DNA of 64,000 bases from NCBI RefSeq assembly GCF_024223415.1, contig NZ_CP100500.1; one strand, given 5' to 3'. This stretch comes from Escherichia coli (GTDB lineage: Bacteria; Pseudomonadota; Gammaproteobacteria; Enterobacterales; Enterobacteriaceae). The translations under genes and the position numbers were made by a program. Under the pieces are notes generated by a model. It was given only the letters and a program-made list of their open reading frames with translations. It was not told the DNA's origin and ran no database searches. Of this stretch, positions 39,110 through 43,648 are shown piece by piece (positions within the stretch are counted from its first letter, which is position 1; the number at the start of each line of letters is the position of its first letter).

Positions 39110-39937
39110 TTATTTAACCTGGATAAATGGTGTATTAGCACCGCTGGTCATGTATTGCGGCAGTGTGCCGTTCCATTTATTGATGGCTTCCAGCTCCATA
39201 ACGCCGGGGTTCTGACGCAGAGCTTCACCGCGTAAACGAATAGCATCAGCTTCGGCCTGGGCTTTTGTGCGAATCGCATCAGCCTGTCCGGCAGCTTCTG
39301 CGCGCAACATATTGGCTTCCGCTTCGCGCTGTTTTACTTCCTGCTCGCGCTGCAGTGTTTTCTGGTTCGCCGTGACTTTGGCATTAATGCTGTCGATAAC
39401 TGTTGGCGGGTACTCCGGCTTACCCACATATGAGAGGCTCATTACCTGAATACCGATAGGTGTCATCTCTGCCTGAATGTCTTTAAGAGCTTCATCCAGC
39501 AGCTCAGACTTGCCGCCGTCGATAAATTTGTCAGTGGTCATTTTGCTGGCCAGTCGGTTGAGTGCGTCGGCGATCTTCTGGCGCAGGTCAGTGTCGGTAA
39601 TGTCATCCACGCCTTTGCGGTAGGTCTGAAACACCGTGGTAACTTTGGATGGATCAACTTTGTAGGCCACGCCAATGTGATAGCCGATGGTTGTACCGTC
39701 ACTCATCTGGAAACTGAACGGTTCATCGTAGGTCTTCATTTGTTTGAAGGTGGGGAAGATATAAACTTCAGTATTCCAGCCAGTCCAGTAGCGACCAACA
39801 CCGACCACCTCACCGACGCCTTTGTCGTCGCCCAGTTTATTTACCTTGATGCCAACATTACCTGGTTCAACGCGATCGCAACCGACAAGGCCAATAGTCG
39901 GCAGAACAATGGCTAAAGCAAAAATAATTTTTTTCAT
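39110..39937 (-). CDS. SPFH/band-7 (HflK/C-, prohibitin-like) lipoprotein (275 aa)
   Basis: Signal peptide plus lipobox (GLVGC). Central band-7-like region. Ala/Glu/Arg/Gln-rich coiled-coil tail (QREQEVKQREAEANMLRAEAAGQADAIRTKAQAEADAIRLRGEALRQ). Confidence 0.7.
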   Translation of the reverse strand: MKKIIFALAIVLPTIGLVGCDRVEPGNVGIKVNKLGDDKGVGEVVGVGRYWTGWNTEVYIFPTFKQMKTYDEPFSFQMSDGTTIGYHIGVAYKVDPSKVTTVFQTYRKGVDDITDTDLRQKIADALNRLASKMTTDKFIDGGKSELLDEALKDIQAEMTPIGIQVMSLSYVGKPEYPPTVIDSINAKVTANQKTLQREQEVKQREAEANMLRAEAAGQADAIRTKAQAEADAIRLRGEALRQNPGVMELEAINKWNGTLPQYMTSGANTPFIQVK

Positions 39938-40122
39938 CTTTTATCCTTAGTGAAAGAAAGACCCTTGTAAATGGCATAAATGCAGGGCGGGGTCAGAAAC
40001 GCCAGTGCAAAGCCAGAAATAACTGCTATCGTATCCTTCATGGATATAAGGAACGGAACGAGTAATCCGTAAATGCATGCGATAATTGCCAGTAAAATTA
40101 CTATTGTGAAATACAGTCTCAT
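39934..40122 (-). CDS. Small two-TM membrane protein (62 aa), translationally coupled to the SPFH gene
   Basis: ORF track. Two hydrophobic segments. Its stop overlaps the SPFH start (ATGA). Confidence 0.6.
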   Translation of the reverse strand: MRLYFTIVILLAIIACIYGLLVPFLISMKDTIAVISGFALAFLTPPCIYAIYKGLSFTKDKR

Positions 40123-40298: not shown

Positions 40299-40880
40299 TT
40301 AATGTGTCACTGGCGCTTCTGGCATACCATGAGTATTCAGGTCGTGAATCATTTCATCCAGAAGGAGTTCAAGCCCTTCGCGCCCCATAGCAGAGAGAAT
40401 GAAACCATTATCAGGATCTGCGATGAGCATTTTTTGATAGAGAAACAGAACTCGCCCCATGCCTTCAGTTTCGCCATATTTTTCAATAAATCCCCATTCG
40501 ACATGGTTTTGCAGGGCAATGCGAAGTGGTCCTGGGTATATACTTATGCAACCATGTTTCCCCTTGTAAATAACTGCGCGATCTGTCGTCCCGTTATCGT
40601 TAGGGATATCAATAGTGCCGTTCTTGTCTTCCTCTTCACTGATAAACTTCATCACATACAGCCAGCGCCACTGAGCAACCTTCAGATCGACTGAAAATCT
40701 TCCCAGCAATCCGGCATCATCAGCTTCGGCAAGACATTGCATGATTCTTAAACCGTGCCAGTATGGATTATCGAATTCGCCATCATTAAGCCGCTGTACG
40801 GCCTGAATATAATCAATGGTTGTATTACCAATTTTTATGCCATGTGGCGTTACTTCTGGTCGGAACTCTGAATGATTCAT
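40299..40880 (-). CDS. Hypothetical phage protein (193 aa)
   Basis: ORF 40299..40937. Start at MNHSEFRPEV, which overlaps the upstream stop (ATGA). No recognisable motif. Confidence 0.6.
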   Translation of the reverse strand: MNHSEFRPEVTPHGIKIGNTTIDYIQAVQRLNDGEFDNPYWHGLRIMQCLAEADDAGLLGRFSVDLKVAQWRWLYVMKFISEEEDKNGTIDIPNDNGTTDRAVIYKGKHGCISIYPGPLRIALQNHVEWGFIEKYGETEGMGRVLFLYQKMLIADPDNGFILSAMGREGLELLLDEMIHDLNTHGMPEAPVTH

Positions 40881-41065
40881 AATATTTGCTCCTTTGCTGG
40901 TGGAATAATCGTGTAGCCAGCTCTTTTTGCCATCCACAGAAATGTATCCATGCAGCCAACGAATTCATTATCCAGCAGATGTTTTGAGTAAATTACTTCA
41001 CCATTTTCAATGGTTAGCAACACTCTTACTTTTTTATGTGTTATGTTTTGTTGTTTTTCTTCCAT
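40877..41065 (-). CDS. Hypothetical phage protein (62 aa)
   Basis: ORF 40877..41080. Start at MEEKQQNITHKK after a GGGAG RBS. Confidence 0.5.
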   Translation of the reverse strand: MEEKQQNITHKKVRVLLTIENGEVIYSKHLLDNEFVGCMDTFLWMAKRAGYTIIPPAKEQIL

Positions 41066-41069
41066 TGAC

Positions 41070-41183
41070 TTATCTCCCATATGCTTTGCGCAAATACAGG
41101 TTGGCTATATGAAGATAAGAATCTCCATGTTGTGCAATGAGGCAGGCAGTTTTATACGATGCCTTATGTTTCAGGAAAGTCAT
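41070..41183 (-). CDS. Candidate small protein (37 aa)
   Basis: Hand translation gives MTFLKHKASYKTACLIAQHGDSYLHIANLYLRKAYGR*. AGGAG RBS 7 nt upstream. Confidence 0.35.
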   Translation of the reverse strand: MTFLKHKASYKTACLIAQHGDSYLHIANLYLRKAYGR

Positions 41184-41261
41184 AACATAATCTCCTGCGA
41201 ATAAAGGTTGCAACAATCCCCGGCGATAAAACCGTAATAAACATTCAGGGAATATTTATTG

Positions 41262-41627
41262 TTATTGCGCTAATTCTTTTTCGGCAGCAGATTTTGCATA
41301 TTCACATGCAAAATTCAGAATTTCGCTGCCAAGTGTTTTTGTTTCGTGATTACTGGACATATGTAATACCTGTGTTGCATGCAATAAATGATAAACATTT
41401 ACCGCAAATGAGTCCGGCTCCAGACAAATGCCTTCATAATCATCTTGTTGTGAGGTTGTTTCTGTCATTGCTCCTGAAGTGCATGCGAGCCTGTTTTTGA
41501 CAATTCTCTTTCCTCTAATCACTATATCGGCAACATCTATTGCCTTTACAACCTCCGGGAGAAGTTCCGGGTTTGTATAATCAAAGTCATCAACATGGAG
41601 AACAGTTATGTTTTCGAACTTTTTCAT
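41262..41627 (-). CDS. Hypothetical protein (121 aa). Its C-terminal ~65 aa is paralogous to the N-terminus of the adjacent HTH protein.
   Basis: ORF track. GAGGA RBS. Self-alignment by eye with ORF 41756..42304. Confidence 0.65.
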   Translation of the reverse strand: MKKFENITVLHVDDFDYTNPELLPEVVKAIDVADIVIRGKRIVKNRLACTSGAMTETTSQQDDYEGICLEPDSFAVNVYHLLHATQVLHMSSNHETKTLGSEILNFACEYAKSAAEKELAQ

Positions 41628-41868
41628 GGCTTCCTCAGCTGACTTATATGTTCTGCTATATAGCGAGTCTCAGAAGTGTTTTCATATTGAGACTGTTTCC
41701 GCAATGATTGATAAAAATGTTCGCATGTACCTTGAGGGGCGAAGCGGCGATTATGTCACCATTGGTATTGGTTCTTCCGTAGAAGAGCTTCGCGAGATAA
41801 GGAGCAAACTTGTTGAGATGCGTCATGGTGTTGCTGCTCCTCACTTTTTGGTTGCTCCGGAGGAGTAA
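41608..41868 (+). CDS. Possible opposite-strand ORF (86 aa), convergently overlapping the HTH gene by 113 bp
   Basis: ORF track. GGAGA RBS 6 nt before the ATG at 41608. The sequence looks protein-like (LYVLLYSESQKCFHIETVSAMIDKNV...). It overlaps two minus-strand genes, so it is uncertain. Confidence 0.35.
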   Translation: MFSNFFMASSADLYVLLYSESQKCFHIETVSAMIDKNVRMYLEGRSGDYVTIGIGSSVEELREIRSKLVEMRHGVAAPHFLVAPEE

Positions 41869-42304
41869 CCTCGCCAGTTAACAGCCACATCGGATCGCAG
41901 CCAAGAATATTTGCCAGTGGGGTAAGCATACTGATAGTTGGTTCATACTCTCCGCTCTCCCACTGGATGATGATTTCTTCATCGAGATCGAGCAGCCTGG
42001 CGAGTTCGGCGGTTGTTAAGCCGCAGGCTTCGCGTTGGGTGCGAAGGTTAACCAGCCAGCTTTTAGGGAAGGATTGTTTTTGTTGTGCAGGAGAAGCCGT
42101 AGATAGAGCATATTCATGGATAAATTCCATTACCTCAATGCCCAGTTCCTTTGAGCGAGCACAATCCAGAAGATGGAATGTGCGTACAGCACTTAGCAAA
42201 TTTGCAATATTTAATGCAAAGGAATCAAGTTCTAAGCCTTCAAGCGTAACACAGCCGCAGTTGATAAAATTAGTTGTTTCTGGAGTTGCTTTTAGTGTCT
42301 TCAT
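41756..42304 (-). CDS. First gene of the leftward operon: N-terminal shared domain plus an XRE-type helix-turn-helix (182 aa)
   Basis: The HTH region is LRTQREACGLTTAELARLLDLDEEIIIQWESGEYEPTISMLTPLANILGCDPMWLLTGE. It occupies the slot where lambda has N. Confidence 0.7.
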   Translation of the reverse strand: MKTLKATPETTNFINCGCVTLEGLELDSFALNIANLLSAVRTFHLLDCARSKELGIEVMEFIHEYALSTASPAQQKQSFPKSWLVNLRTQREACGLTTAELARLLDLDEEIIIQWESGEYEPTISMLTPLANILGCDPMWLLTGEVTPPEQPKSEEQQHHDASQQVCSLSREALLRKNQYQW

Positions 42305-42334
42305 ATACCCACCAACAATTTTAAATTGAATTTA

Positions 42335-42386
42335 ATCAAGTTATAATTGATGGTGCGATATTATGCTTTGAGAAATAGGCTGTCAA
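42335..42386 (-). promoter_or_regulatory. Candidate pL: near-consensus sigma70 promoter with an operator-like palindrome at the start site
   Basis: On the minus strand: TTGACA (42381-42386), a 17-nt spacer, TAATAT (42358-42363). The 17-bp palindrome ATCAAGTTATAATTGAT lies at 42335-42351. Confidence 0.55.
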
Positions 42387-42413
42387 GAAAAAATTGATAC
42401 CGTGTGTTTTAGG

Positions 42414-42438
42414 CAGAAAAAAACGGGCAAAGCCCGTT
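42414..42438 (-). terminator. Intrinsic terminator after the cI-like repressor gene
   Basis: On the minus strand: AACGGGC-ttt-GCCCGTT followed by a T-run. Confidence 0.7.
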
Positions 42439-42449
42439 AAAATCAAAGA

Positions 42450-43139
42450 CTAACCAAATCTGTTTATATTGAATGGTACTGATGAGATCACTTTAGACTG
42501 GATATAAAGCAGAGCTAACCCCTCTTTTTCGATGCTCCATGGTTGATAATTGGGGTTATCAGATAACACCATGATTTTGCTTCCAATTTTTTGAAGTCTT
42601 TTCACGTAGCATTCTCCATCAAAACAAAATGCATAAATGCCATCGCCATCAAAATAAGTTACTGTCTTATCAAGAAAAAGAAGGTCGCCAGGTGAGATTG
42701 TGGGAGCCATACTGTCTCCTCTGGCGTTACCTATTTCTATATTTTTGAATGCCCGATTTCCAACAAGGCGTCGGGCATATTCAGGATCAAGTTCTATTGA
42801 GCGCACTACATCTATCAAGTCACCACGGACATGAGTTCCATCACCGCAACTAAACTCAACATCAAGGACATTAAACACGACGCTATCTGTTCTTGTCTGG
42901 TGTTTCTCTTGCGAGGAAAAGGTTGGTGAGGAGTCTTCACCTAAGAACCAGGATTGTGGATAACCGCTAATCTCGGATAAATGCGCGAGCTTATCACTCC
43001 GTGGAAATGTTTTTCCTGTTGTCCAGTACTGCACTGATTGCGCACTCACACCTAACTTGCGGGCCAGTTGAGCCTGAGTCCATCCTTTTGCTTTCAGCAT
43101 CGCGGCTATTCGATTTTCCGTGTTTTTGACGTTCTTCAT
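42450..43139 (-). CDS. cI: CI-like prophage repressor: XRE HTH plus S24 (LexA-like) autopeptidase (229 aa)
   Basis: N-terminal HTH (KGWTQAQLARKLGVSAQSVQYWTTGKTFP). C-terminal GDSMAPT (Ser) and YVKRL (Lys) catalytic dyad. ATG at 43137-43139. Confidence 0.85.
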   Translation of the reverse strand: MKNVKNTENRIAAMLKAKGWTQAQLARKLGVSAQSVQYWTTGKTFPRSDKLAHLSEISGYPQSWFLGEDSSPTFSSQEKHQTRTDSVVFNVLDVEFSCGDGTHVRGDLIDVVRSIELDPEYARRLVGNRAFKNIEIGNARGDSMAPTISPGDLLFLDKTVTYFDGDGIYAFCFDGECYVKRLQKIGSKIMVLSDNPNYQPWSIEKEGLALLYIQSKVISSVPFNINRFG

Positions 43140-43272
43140 GACCAAATCCTGTGGGTTTCTTTACAAGGATAAATCTTTACTTGATTTTAGTGTATTCGAT
43201 CCTTTTGCAACTTGCATGTTAATTTAAACTTGATGTATTCTTGATTCATAAAGTTAATGTTGGTGCTTTGTT
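43140..43272. promoter_or_regulatory. Immunity switch region (divergent pRM/pR-type promoters and operators)
   Basis: 133-bp AT-rich gap between the divergent repressor and cro-like genes. Repeated (A)CTTGAT motifs at about 43180, 43229 and 43240. Palindrome TGCAAcTTGCA at 43206-43216. The CTTGAT motif recurs in the pL palindrome. Confidence 0.5.
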
Positions 43273-43572
43273 ATGAAAGGAAATGATTACGATAAACTTC
43301 GTGCATTAATTGCGCAAAATGCCATAGCGCGAAATCTTGGTGTGACGCCGCAAGCGGTGAATCAGTGGTTTTCAAAAAACACAATTCCTGCTCGTTTCGT
43401 TTTACGCGTATGTGAAGTAGTTGCATGGAAGGTCACGCCACATGGCTTAAGGCCAGATCTTTATCCTCACCCTGAAGATGGAATTCCTGATTCGTTACGC
43501 AAAATTTCAAATCCAAGCTTAGCGCGCACGGAAGATGGGCAGAGTGATTCATCAGAAATGTCCACGCGATGA
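43273..43572 (+). CDS. Cro/YdaS-like HTH protein (99 aa)
   Basis: IARNLGVTPQAVNQWFSKNTIPARFVLRVCEV... is YdaS/Cro-like. First gene rightward of the immunity region. Confidence 0.7.
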   Translation: MKGNDYDKLRALIAQNAIARNLGVTPQAVNQWFSKNTIPARFVLRVCEVVAWKVTPHGLRPDLYPHPEDGIPDSLRKISNPSLARTEDGQSDSSEMSTR

Positions 43573-43648
43573 ACGGTTACTGAACGAAAAAAGAAAAGCC
43601 GGGCCGCACTCCATCAGCCCGACTTATTCTGATTAGTAAGGGGATTTC

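What the first reader, a model, noticed from the sequence alone, without database searches (positions are those of the whole stretch)
41262..42304. Two adjacent pL-proximal proteins share a ~65-aa domain, with a possible convergently overlapping opposite-strand gene between them
Seen: the N-terminus of the 182-aa HTH protein (..ATPETTNFINCGCVTLEGLELDSFALNIANLLSAVRTFHLLDCARSKELGIEVMEFIHEYALS..) aligns by eye with the C-terminus of the 121-aa protein (..AMTETTSQQDDYEGICLEPDSFAVNVYHLLHATQVLHMSSNHETKTLGSEILNFACEYAKS..). One copy is fused to an XRE HTH and the other to a different 55-aa N-domain. Between them, an 86-aa + strand ORF (41608-41868) has a good GGAGA RBS and protein-like sequence. It overlaps the first 7 codons of the 121-aa gene and the last 113 nt of the HTH gene. 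Inference: a sensor/regulator pair built on a shared interaction domain, possibly with an antisense-encoded third component. The layout is reminiscent of toxin-antitoxin or exclusion modules next to cI (the rexAB slot in lambda). Alternatively the + ORF is spurious and the HTH gene simply has a disordered tail.
Basis: seen in the sequence. Interest (0 to 1): 0.6.

Follow-up and report, generated by a model that had tools for sequence, protein, structure and literature searches.

The report
Prophage regulator, hairpin partner, antisense gene
At the start of the early-left operon of an E. coli lambdoid prophage, a DNA-binding regulator and a small neighbouring protein really do share a two-helix domain, and a real, conserved small gene lies between them on the opposite strand; all three are uncharacterised, and the opposite-strand gene is optional.

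Summary
The 121-aa and 182-aa minus-strand proteins share a helical-hairpin domain: BLASTP 21/47 identical, E=4e-10, and 0 of 5000 shuffles reach the score. The significant core is 47 aa, not about 65.

The 86-aa + strand ORF is a genuine gene.
- It is intact at 64-87% identity in Escherichia, Salmonella and Citrobacter, with the same three-gene layout.
- Its pN/pS is 0.15 outside the overlap and 0.39 inside it.
- AlphaFold2 gives a confident beta-beta-alpha-beta-alpha fold.

The last 38 codons of the HTH gene are an unconstrained read-through into this gene. Their frame has pN/pS 3.2, and frameshifted and nonsense variants exist.

- The genes follow a cI terminator and an operator-flanked pL-like promoter, so they are not in the rex slot.
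- No toxin-antitoxin or defence family matches.
- The + gene is absent, replaced or IS-disrupted in about 30% of related prophages.
- The hairpin-protein gene follows this regulator whatever the regulator's N-domain class (45/48 versus 48/60 loci).
- The regulator's N-domain tracks the cI allele one-to-one.

Best reading: a conserved regulator and hairpin-protein pair, possibly SinR/SinI-like, with an independent accessory antisense gene in a variable slot. Function is untested.

The parts
42450..43145 (-). cI-like repressor (XRE HTH + S24 peptidase), which defines the immunity type
   Evidence: Pfam Peptidase_S24 4e-17 and HTH_3 5e-8. Annotated as cI or XRE regulator in PhiR49_2 and TUM1881.
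42422..42438 (-). terminator-like hairpin plus T-run that ends the cI transcript
   Evidence: Consensus scan: 7-bp stem, 5 GC pairs, then TTTTTCTG.
42358..42386 (-). pL-like promoter, TTGACA-17-TAATAT
   Evidence: 10 of 12 consensus matches. It lies between the cI terminator and the HTH start codon.
42316..42398 (.). three operator-like palindromes (TCAAG...CTTGA half-sites). The same half-sites recur three times in the cI-cro spacer at 43169-43244.
   Evidence: Repeat families D4, I1-I3, I5 and I7.
41756..42304 (-). 182-aa regulator, the first gene after the pL-like promoter
   Evidence: ORF. phrog_4836 1.5e-77. Homologues of 138-265 aa.
42095..42235 (-). N-terminal helical-hairpin domain of the regulator (aa 24-70), the copy shared with the 121-aa protein. 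It belongs to the immunity module.
   Evidence: BLASTP E=4e-10. The DNA recombination breakpoint lies near 42046, at aa 86. N-class and cI class correspond 1:1 in 73 loci.
41882..42046 (-). XRE/Cro-C1 HTH domain (aa 87-141), conserved across immunity types
   Evidence: Pfam HTH_3 2e-10, above its cutoff.
41759..41872 (-). unconstrained C-terminal tail of the regulator (aa 145-182), which reads antisense through the + gene
   Evidence: The tail frame has pN/pS 3.17. The tail is absent in many homologues, frameshifted in P0032 and cut by a nonsense codon in L122/L130/L144.
41608..41868 (+). 86-aa conserved small protein gene (phrog_6104), convergent with the regulator gene and divergent from the 121-aa gene
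   Evidence: phrog_6104 9.6e-50. Homologues at 64-87% identity in Salmonella and Citrobacter with the same synteny. Variable sites by codon position 16/7/32 and 13/7/21. pN/pS 0.15 and 0.39, with no stops in 8 loci. AlphaFold2 pLDDT about 90 over aa 11-70.
41597..41601 (+). GGAGA Shine-Dalgarno for the + gene, 6 nt before the ATG at 41608
   Evidence: Read from the sequence. GGAG is conserved in 8 diverged loci, but it is also antisense to conserved Leu-His codons of the 121-aa gene.
41497..41525 (+). weak candidate promoter for the + gene, TTGACA-17-CACTAT, inside the 121-aa gene
   Evidence: TTGACA is kept in 7 of 8 diverged loci, third codon positions included. It coincides with the conserved IVKNR and ADIVI motifs of the 121-aa protein, so this is inference only.
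41262..41627 (-). 121-aa protein gene: N-domain (aa 1-48), disordered linker, C-terminal helical hairpin
   Evidence: phrog_5451 3.5e-83. AlphaFold2 model. The length is 121 aa in 8 diverged loci and the N-domain pN/pS is 0.47.
41283..41423 (-). C-terminal helical-hairpin domain of the 121-aa protein (aa 69-115), the second copy of the shared domain
   Evidence: BLASTP. Helices 71-89 and 94-120 with pLDDT 86-89. The same domain occurs alone as 60-90-aa proteins.

Best explanation
SHOWN. This is the head of the early-left (pL) operon of a phiP27/PhiR49_2-like lambdoid prophage of E. coli. The first gene after the cI terminator and an operator-flanked promoter encodes an XRE-HTH regulator. Its roughly 70-aa N-terminal domain is part of the immunity module and changes whenever cI changes. 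A small protein ending in a two-helix hairpin is encoded downstream: 121 aa here, and a bare 63-69-aa hairpin in some relatives. This gene follows the regulator gene in about 85% of related prophages. In this immunity type the regulator's N-domain is a paralogue of that hairpin.

The DNA between the two genes is a variable slot. Here it holds a real 86-aa gene on the opposite strand. The regulator ORF runs on into the antisense of that gene for 38 unconstrained codons, so the 113-nt overlap is incidental. The 20-nt overlap with the 121-aa gene start is conserved.

INFERRED. The hairpin is a protein-protein interaction module, probably pairing into a four-helix bundle. The hairpin protein modulates the regulator. 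Where the alleles match, as in this window, it probably does so by hetero-association with the regulator's own hairpin, as SinI does with SinR. The 86-aa gene is an independent accessory gene (a moron). Because it faces pL transcription, it is probably expressed in the lysogen. Its transcript would be antisense to the 3' end of the regulator mRNA.
For: Context:
- cI terminator, pL-like promoter and shared operator half-sites.
- Synteny with phiP27, PhiR49_2 and E. coli prophages.

Shared domain:
- BLASTP E=4e-10 and 0 of 5000 shuffles.
- A second independent case of high similarity: the P0028 C-domain against the P0125 N-domain, 57% identity, E=4e-18.
- The AlphaFold2 model shows a hairpin.
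- The family is small, 53 clusters among 1.84 billion representatives. It occurs only alone, at the C-terminus of the 121-aa family, or N-terminal to 1-4 XRE HTH domains.

Pairing of the two genes:
- A hairpin-protein gene lies downstream in 48/60 class-1 loci and 45/48 MINKAT loci.
- In L098 a class-1 regulator is followed, with a 4-nt overlap, by a bare 69-aa class-1 hairpin.
- In MEALQ-class prophages 16 of 17 regulators are followed by a 66-aa hairpin protein.

Immunity linkage: N-class and cI class correspond 1:1 in 73 loci, while slot type and the 121-aa allele are shuffled.

+ gene:
-.
- The tail is dispensable.

Against: - No interaction was tested, and no multimer model could be run.
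- The 121-aa hairpin allele does not co-vary with the neighbouring regulator's N-domain.
- The commonest N-domain class (MINKAT) and the MIDFID class are not detectably homologous to the hairpin. If the two proteins do interact, hairpin-hairpin pairing cannot be the general mode.
- The domain order is the reverse of SinR, and Pfam SinI does not match.
- The link between N-domain and cI may be purely physical. The two lie about 150 bp apart with no conserved sequence between them.
- Expression of the + gene is not shown. Its candidate promoter coincides with conserved codons of the 121-aa gene.
Confidence: 0.45

Rival explanations
1. Mosaic by-product. The hairpin is a shuffled domain that each protein uses separately, for its own homodimerisation or to bind a common third partner such as a host factor. 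The two proteins do not contact each other, and the shared domain in this window is just one product of domain exchange among prophages.
For: - The 121-aa allele and the regulator's N-domain class do not co-vary.
- The pair is equally frequent with non-homologous N-domains.
- Recombination around the conserved HTH-coding DNA is rampant.
- P0212 carries a fragment of the 121-aa N-domain between its HTH repeats.
Against: - Adjacency of the two genes is strongly conserved in E. coli, Salmonella and Citrobacter.
- There are two independent cases in which a hairpin-protein allele is 45-57% identical to a regulator N-domain class, while the classes differ from each other by about 75%.
- A bare hairpin is translationally coupled to a class-1 regulator in L098.
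Confidence: 0.3
2. The hairpin is an immunity-specific recognition module. The regulator's N-domain binds something encoded in its own immunity region (cI, Cro or an operator complex). Hairpin proteins carried by prophages of other immunity types then act in trans on phages of that type, as inter-prophage anti-regulators.
For: - N-domain class and cI class correspond strictly 1:1 over 12 classes, and their sub-alleles diverge together.
- Class-1 hairpin proteins are carried mostly by prophages of other immunity types, for example 34 MINKAT loci.
- There are two separate matches between a hairpin-protein allele and a regulator N-class.
Against: - Tight physical linkage explains the 1:1 association without any function.
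- No evidence of binding.
- The IMG/VR sample was drawn with the 121-aa protein as the probe, so it is biased.
Confidence: 0.12
3. One reading: an obligate three-component toxin-antitoxin or exclusion module in the slot next to cI.
For: - The three genes lie compactly next to the repressor.
- The + gene has invariant polar residues (S19, S21, Q22, C24, H26, E28, N37, R39, D48, E60) and was hit twice by IS elements. This could hint at a costly activity.
Against: - No hit to any toxin, antitoxin-partner or defence model in Pfam, NCBIfam or PADLOC beyond the generic HTH.
- The + gene is missing, replaced or interrupted in 29 of 92 loci while its neighbours stay intact.
- The genes lie behind a cI terminator and a cI-operator-controlled promoter, so they should be silent in the lysogen, unlike rexAB.
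Confidence: 0.06
4. The + strand ORF is spurious, a chance open frame antisense to the regulator's tail and to an intergenic spacer.
For: - NCBI's pipeline does not annotate it in strain TUM1881.
- No Pfam family.
Against: - pN/pS is 0.15 in the 126-nt stretch that no other gene overlaps, and no stops occur in 8 loci down to 58% identity, while the other five frames carry 5-42 stops.
- Variable sites by codon position are 16/7/32.
- 29 residues are invariant.
- AlphaFold2 gives pLDDT about 90 from only 11 sequences.
- The ATG start is conserved in all 8 loci.
Confidence: 0.03

Closest known systems
SinR / SinI (and SlrR / SlrA) of Bacillus subtilis
   Same: An XRE-type HTH regulator carries a two-helix oligomerisation domain. 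An adjacent small protein consists essentially of a homologous two-helix domain, and the conserved residues form the heterodimer surface (PMC3163267). L098 and the MEALQ-class prophages reproduce the layout of a regulator followed by a bare hairpin of about 66 aa.
   Different: - The hairpin is N-terminal to the HTH here, but C-terminal in SinR.
- There is no sequence relationship: Pfam SinI gives no hit.
- In this window the small protein has an extra 50-aa N-domain.
- The hairpin partner also accompanies regulators whose N-domain is not detectably homologous.
- No binding has been shown.
Lambda N, where the specificity-determining N-terminus of the first pL gene product is inherited with the immunity region (own knowledge: the arginine-rich motif and nut specificity in lambda/21/P22 hybrids)
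   Same: It is the first gene of the pL operon. Its N-terminal part travels with cI and the operators, while the rest of the operon recombines freely.
   Different: There is no similarity to N, and no N or antiterminator family hit. The protein is an HTH DNA binder, not an RNA-binding antiterminator. The linkage may be physical only.
Opposite-strand accessory genes inside lambdoid early-left operons (sieB of Rac, lambda and P22), and the OOP antisense RNA against the 3' end of lambda cII (own knowledge)
   Same: A small gene faces pL transcription inside the early-left operon. It is variably present, and its transcript would be antisense to the 3' end of an early regulator mRNA.
   Different: The 86-aa product is soluble and unrelated to SieB. 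It is protein-coding under purifying selection, not merely an antisense RNA. Its function and expression are unknown.
DicA / XRE prophage repressors
   Same: The HTH domain hits NCBIfam 'transcriptional repressor DicA' (1.2e-10) and Pfam HTH_3.
   Different: The DicA score is 41 bits against a cutoff of 101, so this is not a DicA equivalog. The N-terminal hairpin and the tandem-HTH variants are absent from DicA.

Membership tests
XRE / Cro-C1 HTH regulators (Pfam HTH_3, PF01381) | HTH_3 domain scoring above the Pfam gathering score | tested here: met
   41 bits against a cutoff of 23, aa 87-141.
SinR/SinI-type regulator and antagonist pair | The regulator combines an XRE HTH with a two-helix multimerisation domain | tested here: inconclusive
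   The HTH is shown. The hairpin is inferred from homology to the 121-aa C-domain, which was modelled as two helices. The regulator itself was not modelled, and the domain order is reversed relative to SinR.
SinR/SinI-type regulator and antagonist pair | An adjacent small protein is homologous to the regulator's multimerisation domain | tested here: met
   E=4e-10 in this window. A bare hairpin follows the regulator in L098. This is not met in MINKAT-class prophages.
SinR/SinI-type regulator and antagonist pair | Sequence membership of Pfam SinI (PF08671) | tested here: not met
   No SinI hit at E<=1 for the 121-aa protein, the regulator, P0027 or P0028.
SinR/SinI-type regulator and antagonist pair | The small protein forms a heteromer with the regulator and abolishes DNA binding | not testable with these tools
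   This needs two-hybrid, pull-down or EMSA assays. No multimer prediction was available.
Type II toxin-antitoxin module | A recognisable toxin family next to an HTH antitoxin | tested here: not met
   No toxin family in Pfam, NCBIfam or PADLOC for the 121-aa or 86-aa proteins. The HTH gives only generic sub-threshold antitoxin hits.
Type II toxin-antitoxin module | The components are inherited together as an obligate unit | tested here: not met
   The + gene is absent, replaced or interrupted in 29 of 92 loci. The hairpin gene is absent in 15 of 108 loci.
rexAB-type exclusion genes (cI-operon slot) | Co-transcribed with cI in the lysogen, with no terminator or operator-controlled promoter in between | tested here: not met
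   A terminator-like hairpin at 42422-42438 and a TTGACA-17-TAATAT promoter flanked by operator-like sites lie between cI and the HTH gene. This rests on sequence prediction only.
Protein-coding gene (for the + strand ORF) | Purifying selection in its own frame, and an open frame in diverged relatives | tested here: met
   pN/pS 0.15 and 0.39, no stops in 8 loci, and third-position variation dominates.
GIY-YIG nuclease superfamily (considered for the + gene product) | Sequence or profile similarity to GIY-YIG domains, with the catalytic Tyr/Tyr/Arg/Glu spacing | tested here: not met
Lambda N-type antiterminator (first pL gene) | Similarity to N-family proteins | tested here: not met
   No N or antiterminator family among the Pfam or PHROG hits. 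Only the position in the operon is shared.

The most novel reading that the evidence does not exclude
The helical hairpin is an allele-specific recognition module tied to phage immunity. The regulator's N-domain recognises a partner encoded by its own immunity region. Prophages of other immunity types carry free or fused copies of a rival's hairpin (the 121-aa or 66-aa proteins) in order to interfere in trans with that rival's early regulator. This would be a protein-mimicry form of inter-prophage competition. The opposite-strand 86-aa gene would be a lysogen-expressed accessory factor whose transcription also damps leaky pL expression.
Probability: 0.1. Interest if true: 0.7.

Novelty: new variant of a known kind. 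Interest (0 to 1): 0.4.

Why it matters
If the hairpin protein does modulate the regulator, this would be an enterobacterial prophage counterpart of the SinR/SinI logic. It would sit at the very first gene of the early-left operon, in phages that lack an N-type antiterminator there. That would point to an unstudied control step in the lysis-lysogeny decision of a prophage group present in about 6% of complete E. coli genomes (313 of 5426), including relatives of the Stx2e phage phiP27.

The finding also gives a clean, quantified example of a real antisense-overlapping small gene that standard annotation misses. NCBI's pipeline also truncates its neighbour, the 121-aa gene, to 68 codons. It further shows that a module boundary can fall inside a gene, so that one domain of a regulator belongs to the immunity module.

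None of this changes a long-standing question. All functions remain inferred.

Tried and rejected
1. Co-variation of the 121-aa C-domain with the neighbouring regulator's N-domain. Rejected: the same allele sits beside at least 6 N-classes. P0028, a class-4 hairpin, sits next to a MINKAT regulator.
2. The '68-aa stand-alone' versions annotated by NCBI. In L097 and TUM1881 these are annotation choices, because the full 121-codon ORF is present. True stand-alone hairpins do exist elsewhere (P0027 and P0170).
3. GIY-YIG fold for the + gene product. Rejected.
4. LexA-box control. There is no CTGT-N8-ACAG site near the genes, and the window-wide count is no higher than in shuffles.
5. Known RNA families in 40500-43600. 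None.
6. Fold search with the 121-aa model. Only non-specific helical-hairpin matches.
7. Scan of genome contigs with the 121-aa profile. No confirmed locus. The afdb50 library was unavailable.
8. Literature searches on phiP27 immunity, Stx-phage regulators and mosaic immunity regions. Nothing characterises these genes.
9. Polymorphism among close relatives (17 sites). Too few sites to judge whether the + ORF is coding, so diverged loci were used instead.
10. Conserved palindromes as possible binding sites for the regulator in 40950-41900. Only an AT-rich hairpin after the 121-aa stop codon.
Full report
**What is there**

The window around 39-45 kb is the immunity and early-left region of a lambdoid E. 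coli prophage. Its closest relatives are phage PhiR49_2 (95.5% identity over 98% of a 1351-nt query) and prophages in 313 of 5426 complete E. coli genomes. The Stx2e phage phiP27 shares the left part.

On the minus strand lie, in order:
- a cI-like S24 repressor, 42450-43145;
- a terminator-like hairpin, 42438-42422;
- a TTGACA-17-TAATAT promoter, 42386-42358;
- the 182-aa HTH gene, 41756-42304;
- the 121-aa gene, 41262-41627.

Three palindromes with TCAAG/CTTGA half-sites surround that promoter. The same half-sites occur three times in the cI-cro spacer. The two genes are therefore the first genes of an operator-controlled pL operon. They are not cI-operon (rex-slot) genes. This step rests on sequence prediction only.

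**The shared domain**

The shared domain is real.
- BLASTP aligns residues 69-115 of the 121-aa protein with residues 24-70 of the regulator: 21/47 identical, E=4e-10.
- The Smith-Waterman score is 97, against 27.7+-4.7 in 5000 shuffles, and no shuffle reaches it.
- The PHROG profiles of each family cross-hit the other protein.
- AlphaFold2 models the 121-aa protein as a small beta/alpha N-domain (aa 9-45, pLDDT about 70), a disordered linker, and a helical hairpin (helices 71-89 and 94-120, pLDDT 86-89).
- Structure search returns only generic hairpins.
- No Pfam, NCBIfam or PADLOC model covers the hairpin or the N-domain.

A profile of the hairpin, searched against 1.84 billion representative proteins, finds only 53 clusters. 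The domain occurs in three settings: alone (60-90 aa), at the C-terminus of the 121-aa family, or N-terminal to proteins with one to four XRE HTH domains.

**How the domain is distributed**

I compared 92 related loci from IMG/VR, E. coli, Salmonella and Citrobacter.

The regulator's N-terminal domain falls into about 12 classes. These correspond one-to-one with the class of the upstream cI gene in all 73 scorable loci. Sub-alleles of the two diverge together. The DNA breakpoint lies at aa 86, near window position 42046. In contrast, the slot downstream of the regulator gene and the 121-aa allele are shuffled freely against the N-class.

The same 121-aa allele (at least 95% identical) sits beside at least six N-classes. 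The commonest of these, MINKAT, is not detectably homologous to the hairpin.

I then sampled without that bias, using regulator N-domains as probes. A hairpin-protein gene lies downstream in 48 of 60 class-1 loci and in 45 of 48 MINKAT loci. The regulator/hairpin-protein gene pair is therefore conserved, but a shared domain is not its general basis.

Three observations still suggest that the similarity is not accidental.
- A second hairpin-protein allele (P0028) is 57% identical to a different regulator N-class (E=4e-18).
- In L098 a class-1 regulator is followed, with a 4-nt overlap, by a bare 69-aa class-1 hairpin.
- In MEALQ-class prophages 16 of 17 two-HTH regulators are followed by a 66-aa hairpin protein.

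**The + strand ORF**

The + strand ORF is a gene.
- It matches phrog_6104 (9.6e-50).
- It has full-length homologues at 64-87% identity in E. coli, E. albertii, Salmonella enterica and Citrobacter freundii.
- These keep the same arrangement: a 121-aa gene overlapped by 20 nt, and an HTH gene overlapped by about 100-140 nt.

I counted variable sites per codon position of the + frame across eight diverged loci. In the stretch that no other gene overlaps the counts are 16/7/32 for positions 1, 2 and 3. In the first 21 codons of the overlap they are 13/7/21.

The geometry of the overlap makes this a clean test. Third positions of the + frame are second positions of the regulator frame, and second positions of the + frame are third positions of the regulator frame. 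Variation falls on + frame third positions, so the + frame is the constrained one.

Mean pN/pS values agree.
- The + frame gives 0.15 outside the overlap and 0.39 inside it, with no stop codon in any sequence.
- The regulator-tail frame gives 3.17.

AlphaFold2 folds the product confidently from only 11 sequences (pLDDT about 90 over residues 11-70) as beta-beta-alpha-beta-alpha. No known fold or family matches. A GIY-YIG lead failed. The ATG at 41608, with GGAGA 6 nt upstream, is conserved in all eight loci. The internal Met7 is not.

**The regulator's tail**

Most homologues of the regulator are 230 aa, with two tandem HTH domains, and end 'LLTGKSEAKE'. Single-HTH forms end a few residues after 'MWLLTG'.

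In this window the ORF continues for 38 low-complexity codons through the antisense of the + gene. The tail varies with whatever occupies the slot. It is frameshifted in P0032. In L122, L130 and L144 it is cut 18 codons short by a nonsense mutation. On the other strand that same mutation is a conservative V69I change in the + gene. The 113-nt convergent overlap is thus incidental read-through, not a dual-coding design.

**The slot is variable**

Among the 92 loci:
- 62 carry the full + gene;
- 19 have it cut after codon 36-38 and replaced by another module, the phiP27 type, which again contains an opposite-strand ORF;
- 8 lack it, and there the regulator's stop codon overlaps the start region of the 121-aa gene;
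- 2 carry IS3-family insertions at different codons.

Both minus-strand genes survive in all of these. The + gene is therefore an accessory gene, not an obligate third component.

**Mechanism**

What is shown is the anatomy, the homology, the selection signatures and the linkage patterns.

What is inferred is the following.
- The hairpin mediates protein-protein association.
- The hairpin protein modulates the regulator. Where the alleles match, as here, this would work by SinI/SinR-like hetero-association (PMC3163267).
- The + gene is expressed against pL transcription, probably in the lysogen.

The main rival is that the shared domain is a mosaic by-product with no contact between the two proteins. 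A more novel reading, that the hairpin is an immunity-specific recognition module used in trans between prophages, is not excluded. It rests only on linkage.

**Verdict**

The region is a new variant of a known regulatory design, made of three uncharacterised families. Interest is moderate.

Noticed in passing
L013 about 2610-3835 and L061 about 2720-3950 (IMG/VR loci; both correspond to positions inside window 41608-41868): IS3-family elements are inserted in the + gene at two different codons (aa 61 and aa 15) in two prophages. This may be chance, a target-site preference, or selection against the gene.
   Followed up: partly
L006/L023 3414-3892 (phiP27 L09 region), replacing window about 41720-41870: In phiP27-type prophages the slot holds a different module: an 82-94-aa same-strand ORF (MRMKNC...) and a 69-75-aa opposite-strand ORF. 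The slot therefore hosts an opposite-strand gene in two unrelated versions.
   Followed up: partly
window 41262-41627 and 41608-41868; L001 6163-6369: NCBI's pipeline annotates only the last 68 codons of the 121-aa gene in strain TUM1881 and omits the + gene. The full 121-codon frame is conserved in length in eight diverged loci, and its N-domain has pN/pS 0.47.
   Followed up: yes
window 42046-42304 and 42450-43145: The immunity module's left boundary falls inside the regulator gene, at aa 86. One domain of the first pL gene product is therefore inherited with cI and the operators, 1:1 over 12 classes.
   Followed up: yes
protein P0212 (333 aa, from the representative search): A four-HTH relative carries 'TADVVIVDGKVVKNR', the signature motif of the 121-aa protein's N-domain, between its second and third HTH. 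This points to past fusions between the two gene families.
   Followed up: no
window 41236-41260: An AT-rich perfect-stem palindrome, AATAAACATTC-agg-GAATATTTATT, lies immediately after the 121-aa stop codon. It could be a protein-binding site or a weak terminator.
   Followed up: no
window 39110-40122: Further along the same leftward operon lie an SPFH/Band-7 lipoprotein gene (275 aa) and an overlapping 62-aa membrane-protein ORF, a pair conserved in phiP27 (L05) and related prophages.
   Followed up: no
window 41497-41525 (+ strand): TTGACA, with CACTAT 17 nt later, is conserved in 7 of 8 diverged loci, synonymous positions of the 121-aa gene included. It is a possible embedded promoter for the + gene, but it coincides with the conserved IVKNR and ADIVI codons.
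   Followed up: partly
L093/L096 about 7100-7730 and 1-440: A Gp49 (HigB-like) plus HTH pair, a likely toxin-antitoxin module, lies on the rightward side of related prophages. It is separate from the genes studied here.
   Followed up: no
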